64,000 nt of DNA from Emiliania huxleyi CCMP1516 (Eukaryota), in assembly GCF_000372725.1 (NCBI RefSeq), contig NW_005201287.1:62001-126000 (forward strand), in the 5' to 3' direction. Shown piece after piece: positions 2,937 to 62,097 of the stretch; the first letter of the stretch is position 1; each line of letters starts with the position of its first letter. The position numbers were made by a program, and so were the translations under genes. The notes under the pieces were generated by a model. That model was given only the letters and a program-made list of their open reading frames with translations. It searched no databases and was not told where the DNA came from.

Positions 2937-4119
2937 TGCCGTGTGTGTGTGTTTTGTCGCATTTGCCGTGACGGCGGTCAGAAAGTACGAATTGAGGCGG
3001 TCGGTTGTACTCCAAGTGCTCCAAGGTTGTGGGTCCAACACACGTTCCGTTGCGATCTCCCGCACCTCCCCTTCGGAGATTCAGAAAAGCAGAGGAGAAA
3101 GAAAAGGGCCGGGGGTCTACGCAAGTGTCTGCGTAAGTAAGTGTGTGAGTGAATGAGAGTGGCGGTGAGTGGCGGGTGGCAGTGAGTGTCGTGTCCACTC
3201 ACTAACTAGCTCCGAGTAGGAGGGGGCGTCCTGCAGTTAAGGGGAAACCCGGTAGCGGTACGCGGGGCCAACCCTCGGAGACCCGTGTTTACTTTATGGC
3301 CCCCTCCCCCCTCCCTGCGAACGCGCATCCTTGCGTCGAAGGAGAGGCAGCGTGCGGCTCCGTGGACTCGGCCATCACCCGCGGGTGAGAGGGCGATCGG
3401 AAGCACTCCCGCCCTCTGAGGCGGCCGTCCGAGTCGGGGAGGCAAACACACAGCCATCCTCGCGGGTGTGGGCGGCCTTATCGTCCCGCTATACTAACCC
3501 TTAAGTCGGCCCTTCCTCGGGTCGGCTTCGGAGGCCCCGCAGCCCTAGCCGGAGCTAAGGGGCCCGGCTTTTTCGGCGCTAACCCTAGGGGAAATCGCTC
3601 CGGAATAGGGTTCCCGGCACCATCGGGCGGCGCCACACGGATGGAGGGAGTCGGGTTTGCCATCGGCGGGCCGTGAGGGCGCTGAGAACTCAAGGCTGAG
3701 TTTTCGCTCTCACTTTCGATGTGGCGGAGTATGCGAGGACGGCCCGTTCTGCCCGTTCTCGGGCTAGTCAGCAGATCTAGCGCAGAGAGGGCGATGAGGC
3801 GGAGGCACGCCGCAGCGGCAGGCTTAAAAAGTTGGCATGAAAACGCATATGCGCCAGTACACAAACGAAGTAAGCACGGCACCCCTTAGAGACGTGATAC
3901 TCTCGGCGGCGAAAAATCGCCCTACCGCCGCCACGCGATGGCGCGCGCGCGAGGGCTACTCGAGACAAGCTTGATGGCCTCCGCCGCTCCTCCTAGTCTG
4001 GTCCGCCTCTCCTCTAGCGCGGAGGGCCTCATCTCGCCGGGGAGAAGTGCGGTGATCCGCCTACCGCCTTAGGCACTTGAACGGCGTCACGGTGAAGGCG
4101 GGCTCGGCCGCTGCCTCCC

Positions 4120-12559: not shown

Positions 12560-15500
12560 TCAGATCCGACACGCGAGATGATACCTAGGGTCCTCGATGT
12601 GCGTGTTCAAGGCGTCCAGCGCCTCGCCCAGCTTTCTCCGTTCTGCCTTCTGGGCTGCTGCCAGGTCCGCTTGCAATGCGGCCTCCGCGCGGGCGAGCTC
12701 AGAGCCATGGTCGACGGGCATGATGCGTTCTGGGCTGACGAGCACCGCCTCGGCCGCCTCAGCCAATGCGGCGAATGAGCTCGGAGCCACCTCAGCAGCG
12801 GGAGTGGCGCCAGGGTCTGCATCGGCCGGCCCCTCACCCTCGGCATCAGGCAGCTCAAAGATTTGCCGCAGCCGCTCCTCTGTCGGCGCCTGGAGCTCAA
12901 TATCCGTGTCCGACTCGTCGTCGGACAGTTCGTGGTCGAGATCCTGCTTGCTGGCTCCGCTCAAGAGCTTCGGGAGAGGCGCTGCCGCTTCGGCCCACAT
13001 CCCCCTCCGCGGTGAACAGCGAGAGCTGATGGTCTCCTGCAAGAGCAGCGTGCGGCTAGAGGAGAGTCCAATCGGCTCGTGCAACCACGCCTCATTTGCG
13101 GGTACTGGCCTTGCACGCAGGTGAAACTCCACATCCGTCTCTGCGTGCGGCGGCGGCGGCGTGTAGACCCTTGGCGGTGGCTTGCTCCGCCAAAGTTTGC
13201 TCTCTGTCCCGGCGGTCGCACTCGCTTGGCCGTCCCCTCCAGCCCCTGGAGTGGAGGTGTGTCTCACAGTGAGAAGGGACGGCGGCATCGGCTCCAGATA
13301 AAAAGCCTTCCGGTCCCCCGTGGGCTGCGGCGTGCTCGCCTCGAACGCCGCTCCCACCCGCATCTCTTGCGTCGCAAGAGGGCTGGGCGTGGCATCGCCG
13401 GGAGCGGTGAAAAGCTGCTCCATGTACCCCATCTCCTTGTATCGGCGTGGCACGCGCAATGCGAACCGACGGAACGTCTGCGCCGGTTCGAGCGGCAACA
13501 CGGCAACGTCGAGAGGCGCATCGCGATCACGATTCGACACCGTGTCCGCCGTCGGGAAGGCGAAAGGTTCGATTCCCGACAGCGAGAGGGTTGGTGTGGG
13601 GACCGGTGCGCCAAAGCGACCAGCATCAGCTCTCGCTGTGGGCGCTCGTGAGGAGACCAAGCTGCGGCAATCCTTGAGGGAAAGACCGGCCTCTTCAAGG
13701 GACGCGCTGAAGCAATGCAGCCGGTCGGCGGCGCGTCTTTGAAGGAGCGCCGTCCGGACTCCCTTCTTGAAGATCGCGAGTGCCTGCTCACGCAAGGCAA
13801 AGGAGTCGTTCGAGTAGATGTCAAACGTCGGCTGTGCACCCTTTGCCGCCGCCACGACGCTGTCCGAGATCGTGGCGCGCCCCTTCTCGCCGAGCTCCGC
13901 CTCTCTGCGCTCGCGCCCACGGCGCCGTCTCTCCCGATCCTCGCTCACGTAGAAGGCTTCGCGCGCGGTGCGCGTCGCCTCAATGGTGGCCGTCGGGCAG
14001 GGCTCGGCGCCCCTGGCTACGAGCGCCTTGATCTCCTTCGCCTTCTCAAAGTTCTCCAGATCGGTCATCTGCCGGAGGAAGAGCATCTCTTTGACCTGAC
14101 GGCTCCGTTCCGCCGGCTGCAGCGCCAGGTCCAACTCCCCCGCCGGGGCGGAAGCGTCGGCAGAGGCGCCGATCTGAACCGAGGCCTGCTGCAGCCTGCG
14201 CTGTGGCTTCTTCACCTTCTCGTAGTCCAGCGTCTCTGCGCCGTCCGTGATTGTCGCAAATAGCGCATGCATGTCCGCCTCGCACGCCCCTGGAACCCGA
14301 AGCAGAGGCAGCGCGAGGGAGAACTGAGCGGCGTCAATCCGCCCCAAGCCATCAACGTCGACTTCCTCGAATAGCGTGAACGCGGCCTCGGCCTTCTCGG
14401 CGAGTGAGCGCTGCAGTAGCGATTCGAGAGAGGATGCAGCCACCTTCTCGACTGCTTCCCTGTCGCGCTCCGCCTGCAGCTTTTGCTGCGTGATGGCGCT
14501 GCGCAGCTCTGCGACAGGCAACTTGCCGCGCTGCCGGTTGAGGAGCGCGTTCACGCGGATCTGGCAGTCGAGGTCTCTGGGGATACTGTAGCCGTCGATG
14601 TGCGTCTCCTTAAGCGCGTGGATTCGCATCATCTCGCTGTCGACCGGGTACTTGACCGGAATGTTCCGCCTTCCCACCGTCTCGCGACGCGAGGCTGCCA
14701 TGGCGCGAGACACCGAATCTCCGCCGCCTCCATCCCCTCCAATCCTTCCTCGGTGGTCTGTCACCGCAGCTGCCGCAGCGACGGAGGAGGGCGTCGGCCG
14801 AGCAAGCAGGACGGATCTAATTGAGGCCGTCAGGGTGGGCGGCTCCGACTCGAGGGCATCCTCAAAAGCTGAGCTCGAGCTGAGCACCTGTGGCAGCGCT
14901 TGGGCGTGCTTTCCGCCGCGCTCCGAGCCGGCAGACGCGAGCGAGGCGAGCGAAGAGAGCGTCGGCAAGTGCTCCTGGCGAACATGGCCCGGTGCGCAAG
15001 AGCCAACCACCTCGATCCGTCGAGCAGTGAAGCCTGGCTGCGAGAGGCGCAGCTCTATCAGCATGCGTGCCGTGGCGAGCCGCACAGGCGAATAGACGAT
15101 TGTGAAAGCTGTTCCGCCCGCCGATATGGTGCCGGTCAGTGGCTCGACATTGAGCTCGGTCCCAACGAAGCCTCTACGCAGGATGCTGATCTCAAACCCA
15201 ACGCTGGCTGGTGACTGCAACGGCACCGAGTGGCTCACGTGCGATCCGAGCGTGACAGGCCCAAGGTCGATCAGAGACGGAATGCCCAGGTCGGTGGGCG
15301 AGGCCGTCGGAAAGGCCGCAAGTGGGATCAATAGCTCTCCCGTCTCGGCTTGCACCCGAATCTGGTCGTGGTAATGTCGGGGTTCTGAGTCGGAGGCAGT
15401 GAAGAGAACGAGCACCTCCTCTGCCATGCCGGGCATCACGAGGCCACGCTTGCGGAGCTTGAGCTTGAAGTGCGGCGTGGAGGGAGCATGGATGGTCATG

Positions 15501-15727
15501 CGCGCTGGCTTTCCCGATGCATTGATGAGCCTCAGCTTGGCAGAGCCGGCCGCTCTTCCCTCAATGCCGATCTCGATGGCAGGAGGCTCTGCCACGATGG
15601 AGTCTGGTTGGCCGAGCTTGGCATACGGGTTTGGTTGCTCCAGCAGAGGATTGTGAGGCGGCGCTGCGCGGTCGACCAGGGAGCTGGGCAGCTCGACCAG
15701 TGCCTGATCGTTTTGGACGACGACCAT
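12560..15727 (-). CDS. CFAP221: Cilia- and flagella-associated protein 221 (PCDP1) homolog, with an EF-hand-like insert
   Basis: Uninterrupted 1055-aa ORF. N-terminal ASH/Ig-like segment (RGLVMPGMAEEV...HYHDQIRV...LLIPLAAFP), plus RSRQVKEMLF, PTFDIYSND, RRADRL-like and LRVPRRYKEMGY motifs recognised from CFAP221. Confidence 0.8.
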   Translation of the reverse strand: MVVVQNDQALVELPSSLVDRAAPPHNPLLEQPNPYAKLGQPDSIVAEPPAIEIGIEGRAAGSAKLRLINASGKPARMTIHAPSTPHFKLKLRKRGLVMPGMAEEVLVLFTASDSEPRHYHDQIRVQAETGELLIPLAAFPTASPTDLGIPSLIDLGPVTLGSHVSHSVPLQSPASVGFEISILRRGFVGTELNVEPLTGTISAGGTAFTIVYSPVRLATARMLIELRLSQPGFTARRIEVVGSCAPGHVRQEHLPTLSSLASLASAGSERGGKHAQALPQVLSSSSAFEDALESEPPTLTASIRSVLLARPTPSSVAAAAAVTDHRGRIGGDGGGGDSVSRAMAASRRETVGRRNIPVKYPVDSEMMRIHALKETHIDGYSIPRDLDCQIRVNALLNRQRGKLPVAELRSAITQQKLQAERDREAVEKVAASSLESLLQRSLAEKAEAAFTLFEEVDVDGLGRIDAAQFSLALPLLRVPGACEADMHALFATITDGAETLDYEKVKKPQRRLQQASVQIGASADASAPAGELDLALQPAERSRQVKEMLFLRQMTDLENFEKAKEIKALVARGAEPCPTATIEATRTAREAFYVSEDRERRRRGRERREAELGEKGRATISDSVVAAAKGAQPTFDIYSNDSFALREQALAIFKKGVRTALLQRRAADRLHCFSASLEEAGLSLKDCRSLVSSRAPTARADAGRFGAPVPTPTLSLSGIEPFAFPTADTVSNRDRDAPLDVAVLPLEPAQTFRRFALRVPRRYKEMGYMEQLFTAPGDATPSPLATQEMRVGAAFEASTPQPTGDRKAFYLEPMPPSLLTVRHTSTPGAGGDGQASATAGTESKLWRSKPPPRVYTPPPPHAETDVEFHLRARPVPANEAWLHEPIGLSSSRTLLLQETISSRCSPRRGMWAEAAAPLPKLLSGASKQDLDHELSDDESDTDIELQAPTEERLRQIFELPDAEGEGPADADPGATPAAEVAPSSFAALAEAAEAVLVSPERIMPVDHGSELARAEAALQADLAAAQKAERRKLGEALDALNTHIEDPRYHLACRI

Positions 15728-15806
15728 GCTGATGTAACGACTCGTCGGGGCTGGGCGATGCGGCCAGTTGCGGGCATGAAGAAAACGTACAACGCCCCGT
15801 GGTGTG

Positions 15807-16559
15807 GGTGAACCTTCTTTTCTAGACCGGAAGGATTGAGAGCAGCCTCGCTCTCAATCCTAGAAGTCGAAGGATTGTGAGCAGCACTCCTCGCAATCGT
15901 AGCATCTCTGTGCGATTGCTAGCACCCACGCTCGCAATCCTACATCTTCTAGGACTAAGAGCAGCTCCGCTCCCAAGGTGACTGGTGACGCCTACGACTA
16001 CTACCAGCGCGCTCGCAATCCGAGCAAAGTCTAGGATTGCGAGCAGCACTGCTCGCAATCCTAGCAACATGCCTCCGATTGCGAGCAGTAGCGCTCGCAA
16101 TCCTACATCTTGTAGGACTATGAGCGGCGGCGCTCACAATCGTACCCAAGATCCGAGGATGCAGAGCNNNNNNNNNNNNNNNNNNNNNNNNNNNNNNNNN
16201 NNNNNNNNNNNNNNNNNNNNNNNNNNNNNNNNNNNNNNNNNNNNNNNNNNNNNNNNNNNNNNNNNNNGCGAGCGCTACTGCTCGCAATCGGAGGCATGTT
16301 GCTAGGATTGCGAGCAGTGCTGCTCGCAATCCTAGACTTTGCTCGGATTGCGAGCGCGCTGGTAGTAGTCGTAGGCGTCACCAGTCACCTTGGGAGCGGA
16401 GCTGCTCTTAGTCCTAGAAGATGTAGGATTGCGAGCGTGGGTGCTAGCAATCGCACAGAGATGCTACGATTGCGAGGAGTGCTGCTCACAATCCTTCGAC
16501 TTCTAGGATTGAGAGCGAGGCTGCTCTCAATCCTTCCGGTCTAGAAAAGAAGGTTCACC
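15807..16559. mobile_element. Foldback/Mutator-like non-autonomous element with long TIRs, spanning an N gap
   Basis: 15807-16098 is the reverse complement of 16268-16559. 9-bp TSD CGTGGTGTG at 15798-15806 and 16560-16568. TIRs are built of GCTCGCAATCC-like subrepeats. Confidence 0.85.
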
Positions 16560-16617
16560 CGTGGTGTGACTGTTCGGGCCCGCTGTCGGCTCTCGCGGGC
16601 TGCGGAACCGGCCCCAG

Positions 16618-16821: not shown

Positions 16822-16977
16822 CAGAAGGGGACGGTCCGGCTCCGGCGTCCGGGCGAGTGTGGCAGCTCCTTGCGCTAGTATGGGCACCCTCTATCACAAC
16901 ACTACTGATCCTGGCCATTAGAGCTGCCAGGGATAGCGTCAGGAGCCGGTAGGAGTCAAAACCCCTCATTGCTCATA

Positions 16978-47986: not shown

Positions 47987-49199
47987 GGGAGAGGGGAGGA
48001 GACATGCAGATGTTTATGAGATGCGAGAGCGCGGCGGGTAGGAGGTCCCCGGGCAAACGCGGACTGCTTCCGATGTGTGGCCCCTGTGGCTGGCCACTGT
48101 TACCTCTGTCAAATCACAACGCATGTTCGCCACAGGACATCATCCAGACGCTGCTCATACTGCCCCCCAAGACGATAAGTGTGAAGCATGAAGTGACGTT
48201 GGGAGAACGCGCGTGGGGCGTCGGGGGGCGAGGCGCTGCGCGGGCCGGCTAGCGGCATTCACGGCACATAACATTCGGCTCTGAGGGCGGGGGCGCAGGT
48301 AGAGGTAGGGCTGGCGTGGGGGGCCTCAGGTAAAGGTAAACCTGTCTCAGACCGCCGGAGGTAGAGGTAAACGGAAAAACCACGTGAGGGCAGGTATTAC
48401 CAGGTAAACGTACGCCCGTGATGCGTGAACGTAACCCGCCGAGGGCTCTGTCCTCGGGGGGGGGGAGGTGGGACGACCAAGGCCCCGCGAGAGCGCTTCG
48501 CCTGCGGCGCGCCTGCCCGGCCATGGACCAGGCTTCACCGCCGCTTGCCGACGGCTGATCGCATCGCCTACCGCATCATGCGCCGCGCATCGCGAATGAC
48601 CAGTGCCGCGACCACTTGACCTTGCTGCCTGCCTGCTGACCCCCGCGCGGTGCAAAGAATCTGCGCGTCTCTCGGTGCATTGATTGTGCATGATTGCTCG
48701 AGTGGCTCGAATTGGCAATCCACCGCAATGCGAACATGACTGGAGAGCATATGCAACACGGACGCAGGCTTGCCGTTGGCGACGTCGGTTATCAGAGGGG
48801 TCAGGTCATAGTGACGCGCTCGATGGGTTGCTGCATTGACGCACACAGCAAAAGCATCGCAGCAGAGACCTTCTCATGAGTGGCGGCTCGCACCATGCGG
48901 CAGTGCGGACACCAGGTGCGCGAATTTAAGAGCCATTTTTGGCCACCAAGCGAGATCACCCGAGAGCAGCTGAGTCTGCCTCTGGCCTCGCCTCCCTCTC
49001 CCTCAGCACAGGCATTCGTGGCATCCTATGGGTCGTCCAGAGTATCGACCTCTGGCTTGTCAGCCGGTCACTTGATGACACCATGAAGTACAGCGATCGC
49101 CATCTCGCTGGCCTCTCCGCAAGGCCCCCCGACCGCGTCGAACTCATCGGCGCGGGCTCTCTCGGCTACGGGACCGGCCCCAGCTTCGGCTGAGGGCGA

Positions 49200-49600
49200 A
49201 CAAGCTGCCGAGGCCCACGCGCAGCCCGCGGTGACGCAGCGCAGCGAGTGCGAGGCAAAACAGCCGGATCCTCCTCCCGCGCACCTGCGATCGATGCGCC
49301 CACGTCGTCAACGCCTTCCGCTCGTTGCCGTGCGCGAGGGCTGCGAGCGCTCGCCCACGCAGCTGCCGCGACAGCCGCCGGCGCTCCACGAACACCGCGC
49401 GCCAGCTGTTCCAGCCTCGGCGGCCGCACCGGTCTTGGAATGCGTCTGCTGCCCTTCGCAGCAGCCGCCACGCGCGTGCGGATGCTCGTGCGTAGCTCGC
49501 CCACGTGTTGAGGCCCACGCGCAGCCCGCGGTGACGCAGCGCAGCGATCGCGGTCTCTCTTTCGCTACGTGTTCGACGTCGTCGAACAACGTTCGACCAT
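49200..49600 (-). pseudogene. Sfi1-like (centrin-binding) repeat gene fragment
   Basis: Periodic Trp repeats LRVGLNTWA, RRGWNSWRA, RKALTTWA; 38-bp direct repeat at 49210 and 49510; no complete gene visible. Confidence 0.5.
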
Positions 49601-50693
49601 GGCACTGTTCACAGCGCGCGCGGACGGCGGTTCTGCGACTCCTGCTCCGCAGGACTTTTGTAAAGCATGCTTGTGGCAAGTTATGGACGCTAGTATCGAC
49701 CTCAGAGACCCAAACCCGAATTAATAATTAAGGCTCAAAGTATGGTCGAACAACCGTCGAACAAACAGGTCGAACAACGAAAAGAGACTAGTGCGACCGC
49801 TAGACGGCGGTTCCCGCCGGCCCCAAGGCTGCCCACAGCTCCAGTATCACACCGGCCACGTACACCGTAGCGCTGGAGTCGGTCAGTGAGGCACTAGACG
49901 GGCTACGGAACCATGCGCGCGCCGGCCGGACAGGCTGCGCGCATGGGCCGCGCCGCCTCGATTTCGCACCTCCGCTCCGCGGCCAGCTGAGGGGCGCAAG
50001 CTCGCCCGGCGACAAGCCCAGCCATCGCCCAGCGCCCCGTATCGACGGGGGGCACGCAAAAAAAACGCACCTACGACTAGGGTGAGCATGCGAGGGCGTC
50101 GGTGTGGGCCGCGGGCAGGCTGCCAGGAGGGCGCGGGTGGGAGCATGGGAGATGCACCACCGCTCAACGAAGACGCGCCCGACGAAGCCCTGCTAGCGGA
50201 GGATGGTCGATCCTCACCTACTAGTGTCGGGCGTGTGCGAAAAAGAGCGCAAATCGGAGCTCAACTCGCGCGCGGCTTGGAAAGGGGTGTGGCACCTTCC
50301 GAAGGCGCCTACCTAGCGAGGAGCTGCTGCTGCCCCCAAACGCGCTCGGGCAGCACGTCGGCGCGCCAGCGGTATATTGCCAGCGGTGGCGGACTGTATT
50401 CATGTATCTCCTCTCCTGGGGCTTGGCGGGCACAGGCTTTCATATTATTATATCAGCCCACTGTTGGCTTCCAGAACTTTCATGTTTGTCAGTGGCCCCA
50501 CTCGGCGAGCAAGGCCCTCGGCTGATCAAGAGCCCCGGACACGTGGAACGCCCTGCTACTTTCCGTCGAACGCGGGCTGATATTATATTGTATCCGGGCT
50601 GACTACCATGGCGCCTTGGGAGGCGGAGCGGGCGAGGTGAAACCGTCGTCAATCTCAAGATTTTTCTTGGTCCTCATCCACAGAGAGCCCGCG

Positions 50694-53233
50694 ATGGCGC
50701 AGCGCCGTGTGCGGTTCACCGCAGCGCTCAACTCGTATGTCCACGACCAAGGCTCGGAGGGCACGTGCTACGCTCACGCGGTGGCCACGCTTGTCGTCGA
50801 CGCGCTGCGGAGGCTCGGCGTTCCTGCGCAGTCCGCGCCCCTTCGAAGTACCGTCCTCGAAGAGCTCGTAGCTCGATTTGGGAAAGAAGGCGCGATCGTG
50901 CCTACAGTGCTCGACTGGGCGCTCCGTACGTACGTACGCCCGCACAGCGACGAGGCCGAGTGCGAAGAGCTGGAGACCACGGACGCGGTGATGGAGGTGC
51001 TCGAGCAGGCCGAGGGCAAGGTGGTGATGGATTTCCGTATGAGCTGCTCGCAGTGGGCTCACTTCGAAGCCTTCTTCCGAGCGGAGCCGATGGGCATCCT
51101 CAGTGCGGGCGCGCTCGGCGACCCGCACGGTCGCATCAGCGGCCACGCCGTCGTCATCGAGGGCTCCGAGGACTACTCGCATGGCGGCGCGAACGTACCG
51201 GCGCACCACTTCTGGCGCTTCAAGAACTCGTGGGGCGGGCAGCACGCCGACGCTGGCTTCTACCACGTCGCGCGCGACGCCCTTCCCGGCGTCCGATTCT
51301 TTGCCATCGACGTGCCGGTGCGGCACCGTCGCTTCCGCGAGCTCTTCCTGCCCGGCAGCCGCCCAGACCGCACCTTCGACCTGCGCGGCGCGCTGGCGCT
51401 CTCGAGCGACAAGGTGGGCGAGGGCTCCTTCGGCACCATCTTCCGAGCCTCGCCCCACCCCGCTCCGGAGCCCGCAGTGCGCGAGCGCCTCCTCGCGCGC
51501 GCGGCTCGCGACGCGCTGCCCGCGAGCATGGCGGTCAAGGCCGTCCCGCGCGCCGATCGCGCGCACGCGCTGATTGAGGAGATGCGCCACCTGACGACGC
51601 TGCAGCATCCGTGCGTGGTCAAGGTGCTCGGCTTCACCCTCGACCGCAGCGGCCGCTGGGCGCTCGTCATGCCCCTGTACGAGCTTGGCTCGCTGTCGCA
51701 CCCGCGCCCGGGCGCGCTCGTCACGCGCAGCGCCCTCCCCCGCATCCTACACTGCGTTGCGACCGCCCTGCAGCACGTGCACGACGCCGGGTACATCCAC
51801 GGCGACGTGAAGGAGAGCAACGTGCTGCTTCACATGGATCGGCACGCCGGTCCGGACAAGGTGCTCTGCGGCGTCCTCGCAGATTTCGGCAGCATCCAGC
51901 GCATCGACGCGCCACGCAAGCTCGCGCGCGTGGGCACGTCGGTGTTCCGCGACCCGCGCGTGCGCAGCGGCGACTACGGGAGCGAGATCGACGTCTACGC
52001 CTTCGGCTGCGTGCTCGCCGGCACCGCCGTGCGCGTGGTGCACACGGACGCGTCCTTGCAGTCGCAGCTTGGCGAGCTCGCGGAGCGCTGCAAGGCCAGC
52101 GCCTGGCAGCAGCGCCCGGAGGCCTTTGGACTCATGCTCGAGCTCGCGCAAATTGTAAACCAGCAGCCCCTGCGAGGGGGGCACGTGCGCCCGGGGGCGG
52201 GCATCGACGGCCTCGTCGCGTCGCCGAGCAGATGGCGCGCAACCGCTCGCGCTTGTCGAGTACCGGCTCCGAGCTTCACGCGGTGATGGCGCCGCCGCCT
52301 CTGCCGCGCCCGCTCGAGGTGCCCACGGACGTCCCGTCGGATCTGGACGAGGTCGATCGCGCGCACGTCGTCTATGTGTCACGGGCCAAGTACCACCACC
52401 GCTCCTGCCCGATGATCGAGAGCTGGCACCGCTCCAGCCGCACCGAGTTCGAGAAGCAAACATTTGAGTACGTCGCGCCGCGCGTGCGCTTCAAGCCGTG
52501 CTCCTCGTGCGCGCACCACTTCCGCTTCCGCTTCAACGTCTTCCCCCGCCCCCGCGGCGCCGTGCAAGCGTACCCCGCCTTAAACCGCCCCGCGCCGTAC
52601 CCCATGGACGACATCGGAACCCCTCCGTGGTACGCACGGATCCTCGAGCCCACGGGCGACGACGATCACCCCGAGACGATCACCCTCGGCCCGCTGCACG
52701 TGGACGACGCCTTCGAGGCGCGCGCCGAGGCGCTGCGCTACCTGTGCGATCTGAGCGGAGCGTACAAGTGTGCGCTGCGCGACCCAGTCGGCCAGATGAC
52801 CGAGTACGAGGAGCACCCGGCGCCGCCCGCCCGCGCGCGCGACGGCTCCGGCGGCATGGACATCCGCTTCGAGACGCCGGCCGGCGACGCGGTGTGCGTC
52901 AAGATCCGCCCCTTCTCGGTCGCCATGGAGCGCGGCTGGCCGCTCCAGGGGGATGCCGACCGCCCGGATCCACACGCGGAGCGGTGGTCGGAGGACGACG
53001 ACTTTAGCGACGGCGACGGGGAGTACCCGGAGCTCGCGGAGAGCACGAGCGCTCGCTGGGGCAAGCACAAGGGGACGGAGGAGGACGTGACGAGGGTAAT
53101 GACGGAGAACCAAATCTTCTGGGGCGCGAGCCGAGTCGGCCGGAACGGCTTCGATCTGCTGGAGGACTACAAGAGGCATCCGGATCGCGTGCTCAACTTC
53201 CTCCGGTCGCGAGGCGTCAGCATCCGCTTGTGA
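50694..53233 (+). CDS. Papain-like (C1A) cysteine peptidase / protein kinase / Cys-His motif fusion; frameshifted at 52215-52224, in-frame stop at 52286
   Basis: Peptidase: DQGSEGTCYAHA, GHAVVIEG, FKNSWG. Kinase: GEGSFG, AVK, HGDVKESN, DFG, DVYAFG. Downstream frame has KYHHRSC...KPCSSC. Intronless. Confidence 0.85.
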
Positions 53234-53856
53234 GCGGCAAGGGCAAGCCGAGAAGATCGCGGCGCTTCCGACGCGTCGCGCGTGAGCTGCTCCCAGGCGC
53301 CCATTTTGTGAAATGCCTGGCCACTCACCTAAGCCGATCTCAGAAACACACTCGTGCGGCTGCGCATTGTTTGTATTTTTCCCTTCTCTACGAGCCTGCG
53401 AGTGAAAATTTCAGCCCTGAAAATAGCTGCATCGTCCATCGAAGATCACATATTATCGAGATCACTCGAGAGATCACTCGAGACACGAGAGATCACGCAC
53501 AGGTAAATCACGGCCCTAGGCCGGTCGCTCAGAGGTAGAGCTAGAGGTAAAAGGTAAAAGGGCCCACGGCTGCCCAGAGGTAAAGGTAAGAGGGCCGCAG
53601 GCCCTCAGAGGTAGAGGTAACCTAGACCCCTCCTACCCGGCCCTCAGGGCCGATAACATATCGGTTATCGCCTTATCGCATTTTTTCAATCGATGTTATA
53701 TATATAGCGAGCATCCGATGAGAAAAACGACCACATTCTTGTATTCTCGGCTCTAGCGCGCCCAACACAGCTATAGACGACCCCCCCAGCTGCCTCTAGA
53801 CACGCCCTGGCGCCCCCCGGGCCCTGCCCACCACGCCCTCCCCCGACCCCCTAATG

Positions 53857-61203: not shown

Positions 61204-62097
61204 TAGGGTTGTTGCACGAGTATATGGGCCACGATGTCTCAAATATGAGGGGTTTTGACTCCTACCGGCTCCTGACGCTATCCCTGGCAGCTCTAATGGC
61301 CAGGGTCAGTAGTGTTGTGATAGATGGTGCCCATACTAGCGCAGGAGCTGCCACACTCGCCCGGACCGTCCCCTTCTGGGGCCGGTTCCGCAGCCCGCGA
61401 GAGCCGACAGCGGGGCCGTGCCGCAGGTGCCTACTGCCGAGTGCCACAAACACTGCGCCGTCCCGCCATCACCTACAGGCTGTCTTGTGGGATGGTTGGG
61501 ATGTCCAAACGCCACCATCTTGGCTCTTGCGACCTCAAACCCGCGAGCTGTATGGGTGGTCCTGACGTCGACAGACGCCCGAGGACCATGGTGAAGCTGA
61601 GCCGGAACGAGTCGACAAGTCTCGCCTGAGCCCGTGGCGGTCGCCGGCTGAGTCGCCGTACACGGGCCGGTACCTCAGGCGTCACCTCCGCAGCCTCAGG
61701 TCTCAAACTCCACCACCTCCGCCGGGACACCTTCGGTGGCACGCTCGGCGGCGAGTTTGTTGCAGCCCCACAGCGAGCGCGGCGTCGAGCCTGTTCCGTC
61801 TGGTCGGTTCGCGGCACTCACTGGGTGCCAGGGAGTGCCGCCGACACGCGAGCGGTGCTTCCTGGCAGCGTGCGCCGGCTGTGGGGCTGCAACAAACTCG
61901 AGACACGCTTTTTCAGTGTATGTAGCTCTTACGTACATTCCCGTAGGAGACTCTGCTGACAGGGCTGGACAGGGTTTGCGATGAGGAGCGACCCGAAGGG
62001 TTTCTCGGAGGTTAGCGCACCACTAACCGCCGAAGCGCAAGAACTTTTTTGGGACATTTTCGACGCTTTTGGCCCATATACTCGTGCAACAACCCTG
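61204..62097. mobile_element. Tc1/mariner-like MITE family A, about 890 bp
   Basis: 27-bp TIR AGGGTTGTTGCACGAGTATATGGGCCA (61205-61231 / 62070-62096). Right end is CCCTG followed by TA; the left terminus is degenerate. Confidence 0.8.
61910..62041 (-). repeat. Long copy of the dispersed structured repeat, nested in MITE A
   Basis: Reverse complement aligns with 26346-26530. Confidence 0.85.

What the first reader, a model, noticed from the sequence alone, without database searches (positions are those of the whole stretch)
48276..53652. 5.4-kb transposase-less element carrying a protease-kinase cassette
Seen: 13-bp TIRs (1 mismatch), an 8-bp flanking duplication (7 of 8 match), and AGGTARAGGTAA clusters at 48297-48407 and 53502-53620. 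Inside lie an Sfi1-like fragment and one long intronless gene, whereas most neighbouring genes are intron-rich. Known: short TIRs, 8-bp TSDs and subterminal transposase-binding repeats typify hAT elements, and Pack elements capture genes. Inference: a mobile cargo unit that could spread a signalling or defence module and vary between strains.
Basis: partly seen in the sequence, partly recalled or inferred. Interest (0 to 1): 0.85.

Follow-up and report, generated by a model that had tools for sequence, protein, structure and literature searches.

The report
Algal jumping element carrying protease-kinase gene
In the bloom-forming alga Emiliania huxleyi, a whole, transcribed gene for a predicted protease-kinase protein sits between the two ends of a multi-copy DNA element that encodes no recognisable transposase and likely carried the gene to this spot, and the element's ends fit none of the transposon groups we checked.

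Summary
It spans 48275-53653, with 14-bp TIRs (5'-TCGG..CCGA-3') and a perfect 6-bp duplication (TAACAT), not an 8-bp one: 14 of 14 other right ends stop at the same A. The host is Emiliania huxleyi (cargo = EMIHUDRAFT_200874). The ends recur with 12 different right flanks and different interiors, including a WW-domain ORF and an orphan Cys-rich ORF; one copy sits inside another. The window's copy looks like a ~1.3-kb non-autonomous member whose middle was replaced by 4.4 kb of host DNA. The cargo is a papain-like protease-kinase gene with intact catalytic residues. It is transcribed unspliced and has single-copy depth in four genomic runs. The window breaks its frame near 52221; two runs restore an 845-aa frame. 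No empty site was seen, so strain variation in presence is unsupported. hAT membership is unsupported (6-bp TSD, TC..GA ends), though not excluded, and no transposase was found. Only 1 of 3 two-ended copies shows a TSD; the other two are probably chimeric assemblies. Verdict: a Pack-type gene-carrying TIR element of unassigned superfamily.

The parts
48269..48274 (+). Left copy of the 6-bp target-site duplication (TAACAT)
   Evidence: chance 2.6e-4
48275..48288 (+). Left TIR, 14 bp, begins TCGG
   Evidence: L004 and L005 left ends start at the same T
48289..48557 (+). Left subterminal region with AGGTARAGGTA repeats (48297, 48328, 48359) and the first 34 bp (from 48524) of the family's WW-domain ORF A, cut off at 48557
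   Evidence: 76-82% identity to L004/L005 left ends
48558..48939 (.). Multi-copy interior of the short subfamily; other copies leave the window sequence at 48939
   Evidence: loose ends behind 48939 in 4 of 4 runs share a 15-mer with L001; assignment inferred
48940..50337 (.).
   Evidence: depth and contig tables; no Pfam Sfi1 or Rfam hit; inverted ends seen
50694..53233 (+). Cargo gene EMIHUDRAFT_200874: papain-like (C1) protease domain (Q19, C25, H151, N178), protein kinase, Cys/His-rich small domain and C-terminal region; frame break near 52220-52223 in the window
   Evidence: unspliced RNA contigs and frame variants
53296..53639 (+). Right subterminal region: CGAGATCAC repeats and AGGTARAGGTA repeats (53578, 53609), on the same strand as at the left end
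   Evidence: shared with L001, L003, L006, L013, L014
53640..53653 (-). Right TIR, 14 bp, ends CCGA on the plus strand
   Evidence: 14 of 14 loci; loose ends at 53653 in 4 of 4 runs
53654..53659 (+). Right copy of the 6-bp TSD (TAACAT)
   Evidence: same flank in L003 and L006

Best explanation
This is a multi-copy DNA element with 14-bp inverted ends and no recognisable transposase that holds a complete, transcribed protease-kinase gene, and it was likely pasted here as one unit by a transposase supplied from elsewhere, leaving the 6-bp duplication. Shown: fixed termini, many insertion sites, exchangeable interiors, one copy inside another, a TSD here, and cargo that is single-copy and transcribed. 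Inferred: a ~1.3-kb member of the family lost ~0.3 kb of its middle and gained 4.4 kb of host DNA. Most likely two neighbouring copies each lost their facing end, giving a hybrid that was then cut out and reinserted. That route moves the gene rather than copying it, which fits the single-copy depth. The same-strand AGGTARAGGTA arrays would be transposase-binding sites. The insertion looks old and widespread, not recently spreading. The protein is predicted to be an intracellular Cys protease joined to a kinase, probably a proteolysis-linked signalling module; that role is untested.
For: TIR and TSD. 14 of 14 right ends share the terminus, with 12 distinct flanks; A/T at +1 in 10 of 12 (p=6e-4) and C/T at +2 in 11 of 12 (p=3e-3) suggest a target preference (noticed after looking, not predefined). 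Four contigs with differing flanks end at 53653 in run X1 alone. L001 interrupts ORF A of another member, compared with L012. Interiors differ among L001/L013, L004/L005, L009, L012 and the window. Gene contig depth matches the flanks in 4 of 4 runs: X2 490-543 vs 441-621, X7 15-16 vs 13-17, X8 61-64 vs 56-58, X10 94-116 vs 80-108. The gene is joined to the right subterminal DNA in single contigs of X1 and X8. RNA contigs of X11 and X12 cover the gene without joints and have zero cover at 50416-50647 and 53316-53547. The hybrid-capture mechanism is described for plant Pack-CACTA (PMC13317346 passage).
Against: Only 1 of 3 two-ended copies has a TSD; L004 and L005 have none. I read them as chimeric because L004 shares its right flank with L014, which has the other subterminal type, but this is not proven. 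No empty allele, donor locus or autonomous partner was found, and no genome was available. The left junction is seen in only 2 of 4 runs and by 27 bases, under the tool's 31-base bridging rule; X8 leaves the window at 48251 and X10 stops at 48244. The full 845-aa frame is supported by X1 (possibly the window's own strain) and X13. X11 shows a one-base loss (590 aa), and X2, X7, X8 and X12 break at 52197-52225. X11 and X12 come from one study.
Confidence: 0.6

Rival explanations
1. The short element inserted here first and made the TSD; the 4.4 kb of host DNA was copied into it later, in place (repair or template switching), and the donor gene was lost or has diverged. The 5.4-kb unit never moved as a whole.
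For: No second copy of the full cassette is seen. The interior is a patchwork of repeats, consistent with several later insertions. L006 shows that part of this locus (53066-53681) was copied into another context.
Against: It needs an extra event, loss of the donor, to explain single-copy depth in 4 of 4 runs. No donor at 90% identity or more is visible.
Confidence: 0.22
2. It is a non-autonomous hAT derivative of a 6-bp-TSD lineage (hAT6-like) with unusual termini.
For: Short TIR within the 10-25 bp hAT range (PMC3942097 passage); hAT5, hAT6 and hAT7 exist (PMC12730594 passage); hATs are abundant in the haptophyte Tisochrysis lutea (PMC5963040 passage); subterminal repeats. This rival concerns the superfamily and is compatible with the capture model.
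Against: Termini TC..GA rather than the usual YA..TR (recalled, no call). TSD is not 8 bp. ORFs in other family members show no hAT domain.
Confidence: 0.2
3. The family inserts without a fixed duplication (for example by a recombinase or a blunt cut), and the ends merely bracket a resident gene, the 6-bp match being chance.
For: 2 of 3 two-ended copies lack a TSD; binding-site-like repeats in direct orientation; base preference just outside the end.
Against: The 6-bp match lies exactly at independently fixed termini, chance about 2.6e-4. The two TSD-less contigs are short metagenome assemblies of a multi-copy repeat, and at least one of L004/L014 has mixed parts.
Confidence: 0.08

Closest known systems
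Pack-TYPE TIR elements of plants (Pack-MULE, Pack-CACTA)
   Same: Non-autonomous TIR element with TSD, host sequence between conserved ends, interiors that differ among copies; the hybrid-end capture model fits (PMC13317346 passages).
   Different: Haptophyte host; termini and TSD length match neither MULE nor CACTA; the cargo is a whole, apparently sole, transcribed gene rather than a fragment with a parent elsewhere.
hAT superfamily (including hAT6)
   Same: Short TIRs, subterminal repeats; 6-bp TSDs occur in hAT6.
   Different: Not 8 bp; TC..GA ends; no hAT transposase in any member seen.
IS3EU / GingerRoot
   Same: 6-bp TSD (PMC10045372 and PMC12730594 passages).
   Different: Those end TA..TA (TAYGG..CCRTA with TIRs over 30 bp in the fungal families), occasionally TG..CA; this one ends TCGG..CCGA with 14-bp TIRs; no IS3-like transposase found.
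Papain family C1 proteases and eukaryotic protein kinases
   Same: Q19/C25/H151/N178 conserved; profile hits cathepsins C and K at E~4e-15; kinase Pfam E=8e-22 and kinase fold.
   Different: No propeptide or evident signal peptide; protease fused N-terminal to a kinase and a Cys/His domain, an arrangement shared with unnamed marine homologues and not found in my one literature search (listing only).

Membership tests
Pack-type non-autonomous TIR element | TIRs shared with a multi-copy family | tested here: met
   14 of 14 loci share the right end, 12 distinct flanks; 2 other left ends
Pack-type non-autonomous TIR element | Flanking TSD | tested here: met
   Perfect 6 bp in the window; absent in L004 and L005, probably chimeric contigs
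Pack-type non-autonomous TIR element | No transposase; host-gene sequence inside | tested here: met
   No transposase Pfam hit in the 5 internal frames scanned; the cargo belongs to a family found in other organisms
Pack-type non-autonomous TIR element | Donor locus or empty site identifiable | tested here: inconclusive
   No empty-site joint and no second gene copy in 4 runs, but contigs cannot show absence; no genome held
hAT | 8-bp TSD (usual) | tested here: not met
   6 bp once termini are fixed; 5-7-bp hAT lineages exist
hAT | YA..TR termini (recalled) | tested here: not met
   TC..GA: 14 of 14 right ends, 3 of 3 left ends
hAT | Autonomous partner with hAT transposase and the same TIR | not testable with these tools
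   No genome; ORF A and ORF B fragments show no hAT domain
IS3EU/GingerRoot | 6-bp TSD | tested here: met
IS3EU/GingerRoot | TA..TA termini | tested here: not met
   TC..GA
KDZ (Zisupton, Kyakuja) | 8-bp TSD (Zisupton), or 7-bp TSD with CA..TG ends and no TIR (Kyakuja) | tested here: not met
Papain family C1 | Gln, Cys, His, Asn catalytic set and NSWG motif | tested here: met
   Q19, C25, H151, N178-S-W-G; the single-sequence Pfam score 18.7 is under the 20.7 cut-off
Protein kinase | Gly loop, VAxK, HxDxKxxN, DFG | tested here: met
   GEGSFG, MAVK, HGDVKESN, DFG; Pfam and Foldseek; activity not testable
Sfi1 | Match to the Sfi1 profile | tested here: not met
   No hit at E<=10; HMMER filters drop weak matches

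The most novel reading that the evidence does not exclude
The ends belong to an undescribed DNA-transposon lineage of haptophytes (TCGG..CCGA termini, 6-bp TSD, same-strand binding arrays). Its autonomous form carries two convergent genes, a WW-domain helper and a Cys-rich orphan whose catalytic half is deleted in the common derivatives, and it relocates whole expressed host genes in Emiliania.
Probability: 0.2. Interest if true: 0.78.

Novelty: new variant of a known kind. Interest (0 to 1): 0.5.

Why it matters
Gene capture by TIR transposons is documented mostly in plants and mostly as fragments. Here a whole, transcribed, apparently sole copy of a conserved protease-kinase gene sits inside such an element in a globally important alga, and the family swaps interiors. 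The corrected termini give an exact probe for finding the autonomous partner, which may be an unclassified transposase. The work also corrects the public gene model: neither predicted intron has RNA support here. It does not show that the cassette is spreading or adaptive.

Tried and rejected
No whole genome was held, so the genome-wide end search was not possible. End patterns found nothing in viral contigs or prokaryote genomes. Cargo and ORF A relatives were not found in viral contigs. ORF B (P0001/P0173): only its own cluster among longer proteins; nothing for residues 1-319 among proteins of 560-2000 aa; no Atlas hit; no meaningful Pfam hit; single-sequence model unusable, pLDDT 36. ORF A exon 2: no longer relative. 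These negatives are weak by the tools' own notes, and I ran no near-length search for either ORF. The cargo's C-terminal frame had no Pfam or Atlas hit. Rfam was empty. No transposase Pfam hit in 19 long frames elsewhere in the window (19 of the 47 frames of 300+ codons listed). The wide structural search never finished, so the protease fold rests on sequence profiles. Foldseek's listed hits were all kinases. Earlier-finding look-ups returned nothing. Rejected: 8-bp TSD; retroposition as the reason for no introns; the two introns of the public model. Literature searches showed no description of this element or fusion. I saw listings, abstract starts, and passages of 7 papers, no supplements; Repbase entries could not be searched and may already hold this family.
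Full report
Observation. The window has inverted ends around 48275-53653. Two readings fit the window alone: a 13-bp TIR with a 7/8 match of 8 bp, or a 14-bp TIR with a perfect 6-bp TAACAT. Other copies decide it. A metagenome scan with a right-end pattern that stopped at GCCG returned 14 loci, and 14 of 14 continue with A before diverging. Contigs from 4 of 4 further runs have loose ends at 53653. The two other left ends also start with T. So the element is 48275-53653, with TCGG..CCGA termini and a 6-bp TSD, whose chance at fixed ends is about 2.6e-4. The AGGTARAGGTA motif occurs 5 times in the window, only at the two ends and on the same strand, against a simulated mean of 0.03.

Host. The cargo's N-terminal 219 aa are identical to P0002, recorded as EMIHUDRAFT_200874 of Emiliania huxleyi CCMP1516.

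The family. The 14 loci give 12 distinct right flanks, with A/T at +1 in 10 of 12 and C/T at +2 in 11 of 12 (a post-hoc pattern). Interiors differ. L004 (1.9 kb) and L005 (2.84 kb) carry a plus-strand ORF A with two WW domains (Pfam E=6e-22), whose first 34 bp survive in the window at 48524-48557. They also carry a minus-strand ORF B; in L005 it includes a Cys-rich stretch and is cut where it runs into ORF A. ORF B is an orphan. L001 is a copy inserted into ORF A of another copy (compare L012). In 4 of 4 runs, other copies leave the window sequence at 48939 with letters that share a 15-mer with L001's interior, which rejoins the window at 53296. From this I infer a ~1.3-kb short subfamily whose ~0.3-kb middle is replaced in the window by 48940-53295. 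Against a simple picture: L004 and L005 have both ends but no TSD. L004 shares its right flank with L014, which has the other subterminal type, so at least one of those two contigs has mixed parts. Chimeric assembly is likely but not proven, and the TSD rests on 1 of 3 two-ended copies.

Copy number and distribution. Runs X2 and X10 are guessed DNA; X1, X7 and X8 are of unrecorded kind but cover untranscribed DNA evenly. In one search the ends have summed depths tens of times the flanks and parts of 48800-50340 hundreds to over a thousand times (sums, not copy numbers). The gene lies on long contigs with the same depth as the flanks in 4 of 4 runs. Exception: about 2x near 53091-53325 in X10 and 53189-53325 in X7, which fits L006, where 53066-53681 sits in another context. 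No listed joint skips the element, though contigs cannot show absence. The gene is joined to the right subterminal DNA in X1 and X8. L003 holds the same right junction and 2 kb of flank at 98%. The left junction is weaker: X2 and X7 run 27 bases into the TIR, X10 stops at 48244, and X8 diverges at 48251. The insertion thus looks shared and old; presence-absence variation is not shown.

The cargo. The N-terminal domain keeps Q19, C25, H151 and N178; a 19-sequence profile hits cathepsins at E~4e-15, although the single sequence is under Pfam's cut-off. The kinase has its catalytic motifs, and the model matches kinase structures. Homologues such as P0004 (53%, one 780-aa ORF), P0013 and P0167 align across two frames of the window, breaking near 52220. 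X1 lacks two bases there and RNA run X13 has one extra; the X1 pattern gives 845 aa and the X13 change is the same net shift. X11 lacks one base (590 aa), and X2, X7, X8 and X12 break there, so the spot varies among strains; X1 may be the window's own strain, so the break may be an assembly error or an allele. RNA contigs of X11 and X12 (one study) cover the gene without joints, including both introns of the public model, and do not cover 50416-50647 or 53316-53547; this supports unspliced transcription. Related protease domains are fused to other modules, for example an alpha-kinase in a Polarella protein. A signalling or defence role is inference only.

Mechanism. Most likely a transposase supplied in trans binds the subterminal arrays and moves anything between the ends. 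The cargo was probably captured when two neighbouring copies lost their facing ends, as described for Pack-CACTA (PMC13317346, passages), and the hybrid was cut and pasted here. This explains both the TSD and the missing donor. In-place filling of an earlier insertion is the main rival.

Comparison. hAT usually has 8-bp TSDs (PMC3942097, passages), with 5-7-bp lineages (PMC12730594, passages); the YA..TR ends are my recall. IS3EU/GingerRoot share the 6-bp TSD but end TA..TA (PMC10045372, passages). Repbase assigns non-autonomous elements by TSD length and the first 11 bases (PMC4455052, passages), a test I could not run. I also read passages of PMC3627910 (not relevant) and PMC5963040. Six literature searches showed no description of this family; no supplements were read, and Repbase may hold it.

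Verdict. A real, gene-carrying non-autonomous TIR element of unassigned superfamily; a new variant of a known kind. Interest 0.5.

Noticed in passing
L006 (pattern match 3451-3495; segment 2922-3524): Window 53066-53681 (gene tail, right end and 28 bp of flank) sits inside an unrelated locus at 93% identity, suggesting re-capture of part of this locus by another process.
   Followed up: partly
L001:804-860: An element copy inserted inside the WW-domain ORF of another copy of the same family (uninterrupted form in L012).
   Followed up: partly
window 15806-16560: A perfect 293-bp inverted repeat around an assembly gap (N run 16168-16267) with internal repeats; foldback element or assembly artefact.
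   Followed up: no
window 12563-15853 (-): A 1097-codon stop-free frame with no Pfam hit; resembles a ciliary protein by eye (recall).
   Followed up: no
window 48940-49210 and 49560-50340: Extremely high-copy repeat pieces, including a ~240-bp element with GTCGAACAA repeats and inverted ends; pieces are also abundant in RNA runs.
   Followed up: partly
window 53593-53654: Right ends of other copies lie in very deep RNA contigs (depth 370-1600) in X11 and X12, i.e. element ends inside abundant transcripts.
   Followed up: no
window 52197-52225: Indel hot spot inside the cargo gene: -2, -1, +1 and longer unaligned pieces among runs.
   Followed up: partly
window 16847-16969 and 61217-61366: A dispersed repeat with two copies in the window; the right flank of L005 lies in the same repeat.
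   Followed up: no
window 53649-53679: The right end and its flank form short hairpins (CCGATA/TATCGG; CGATAAC/GTTATCG); meaning unknown.
   Followed up: no
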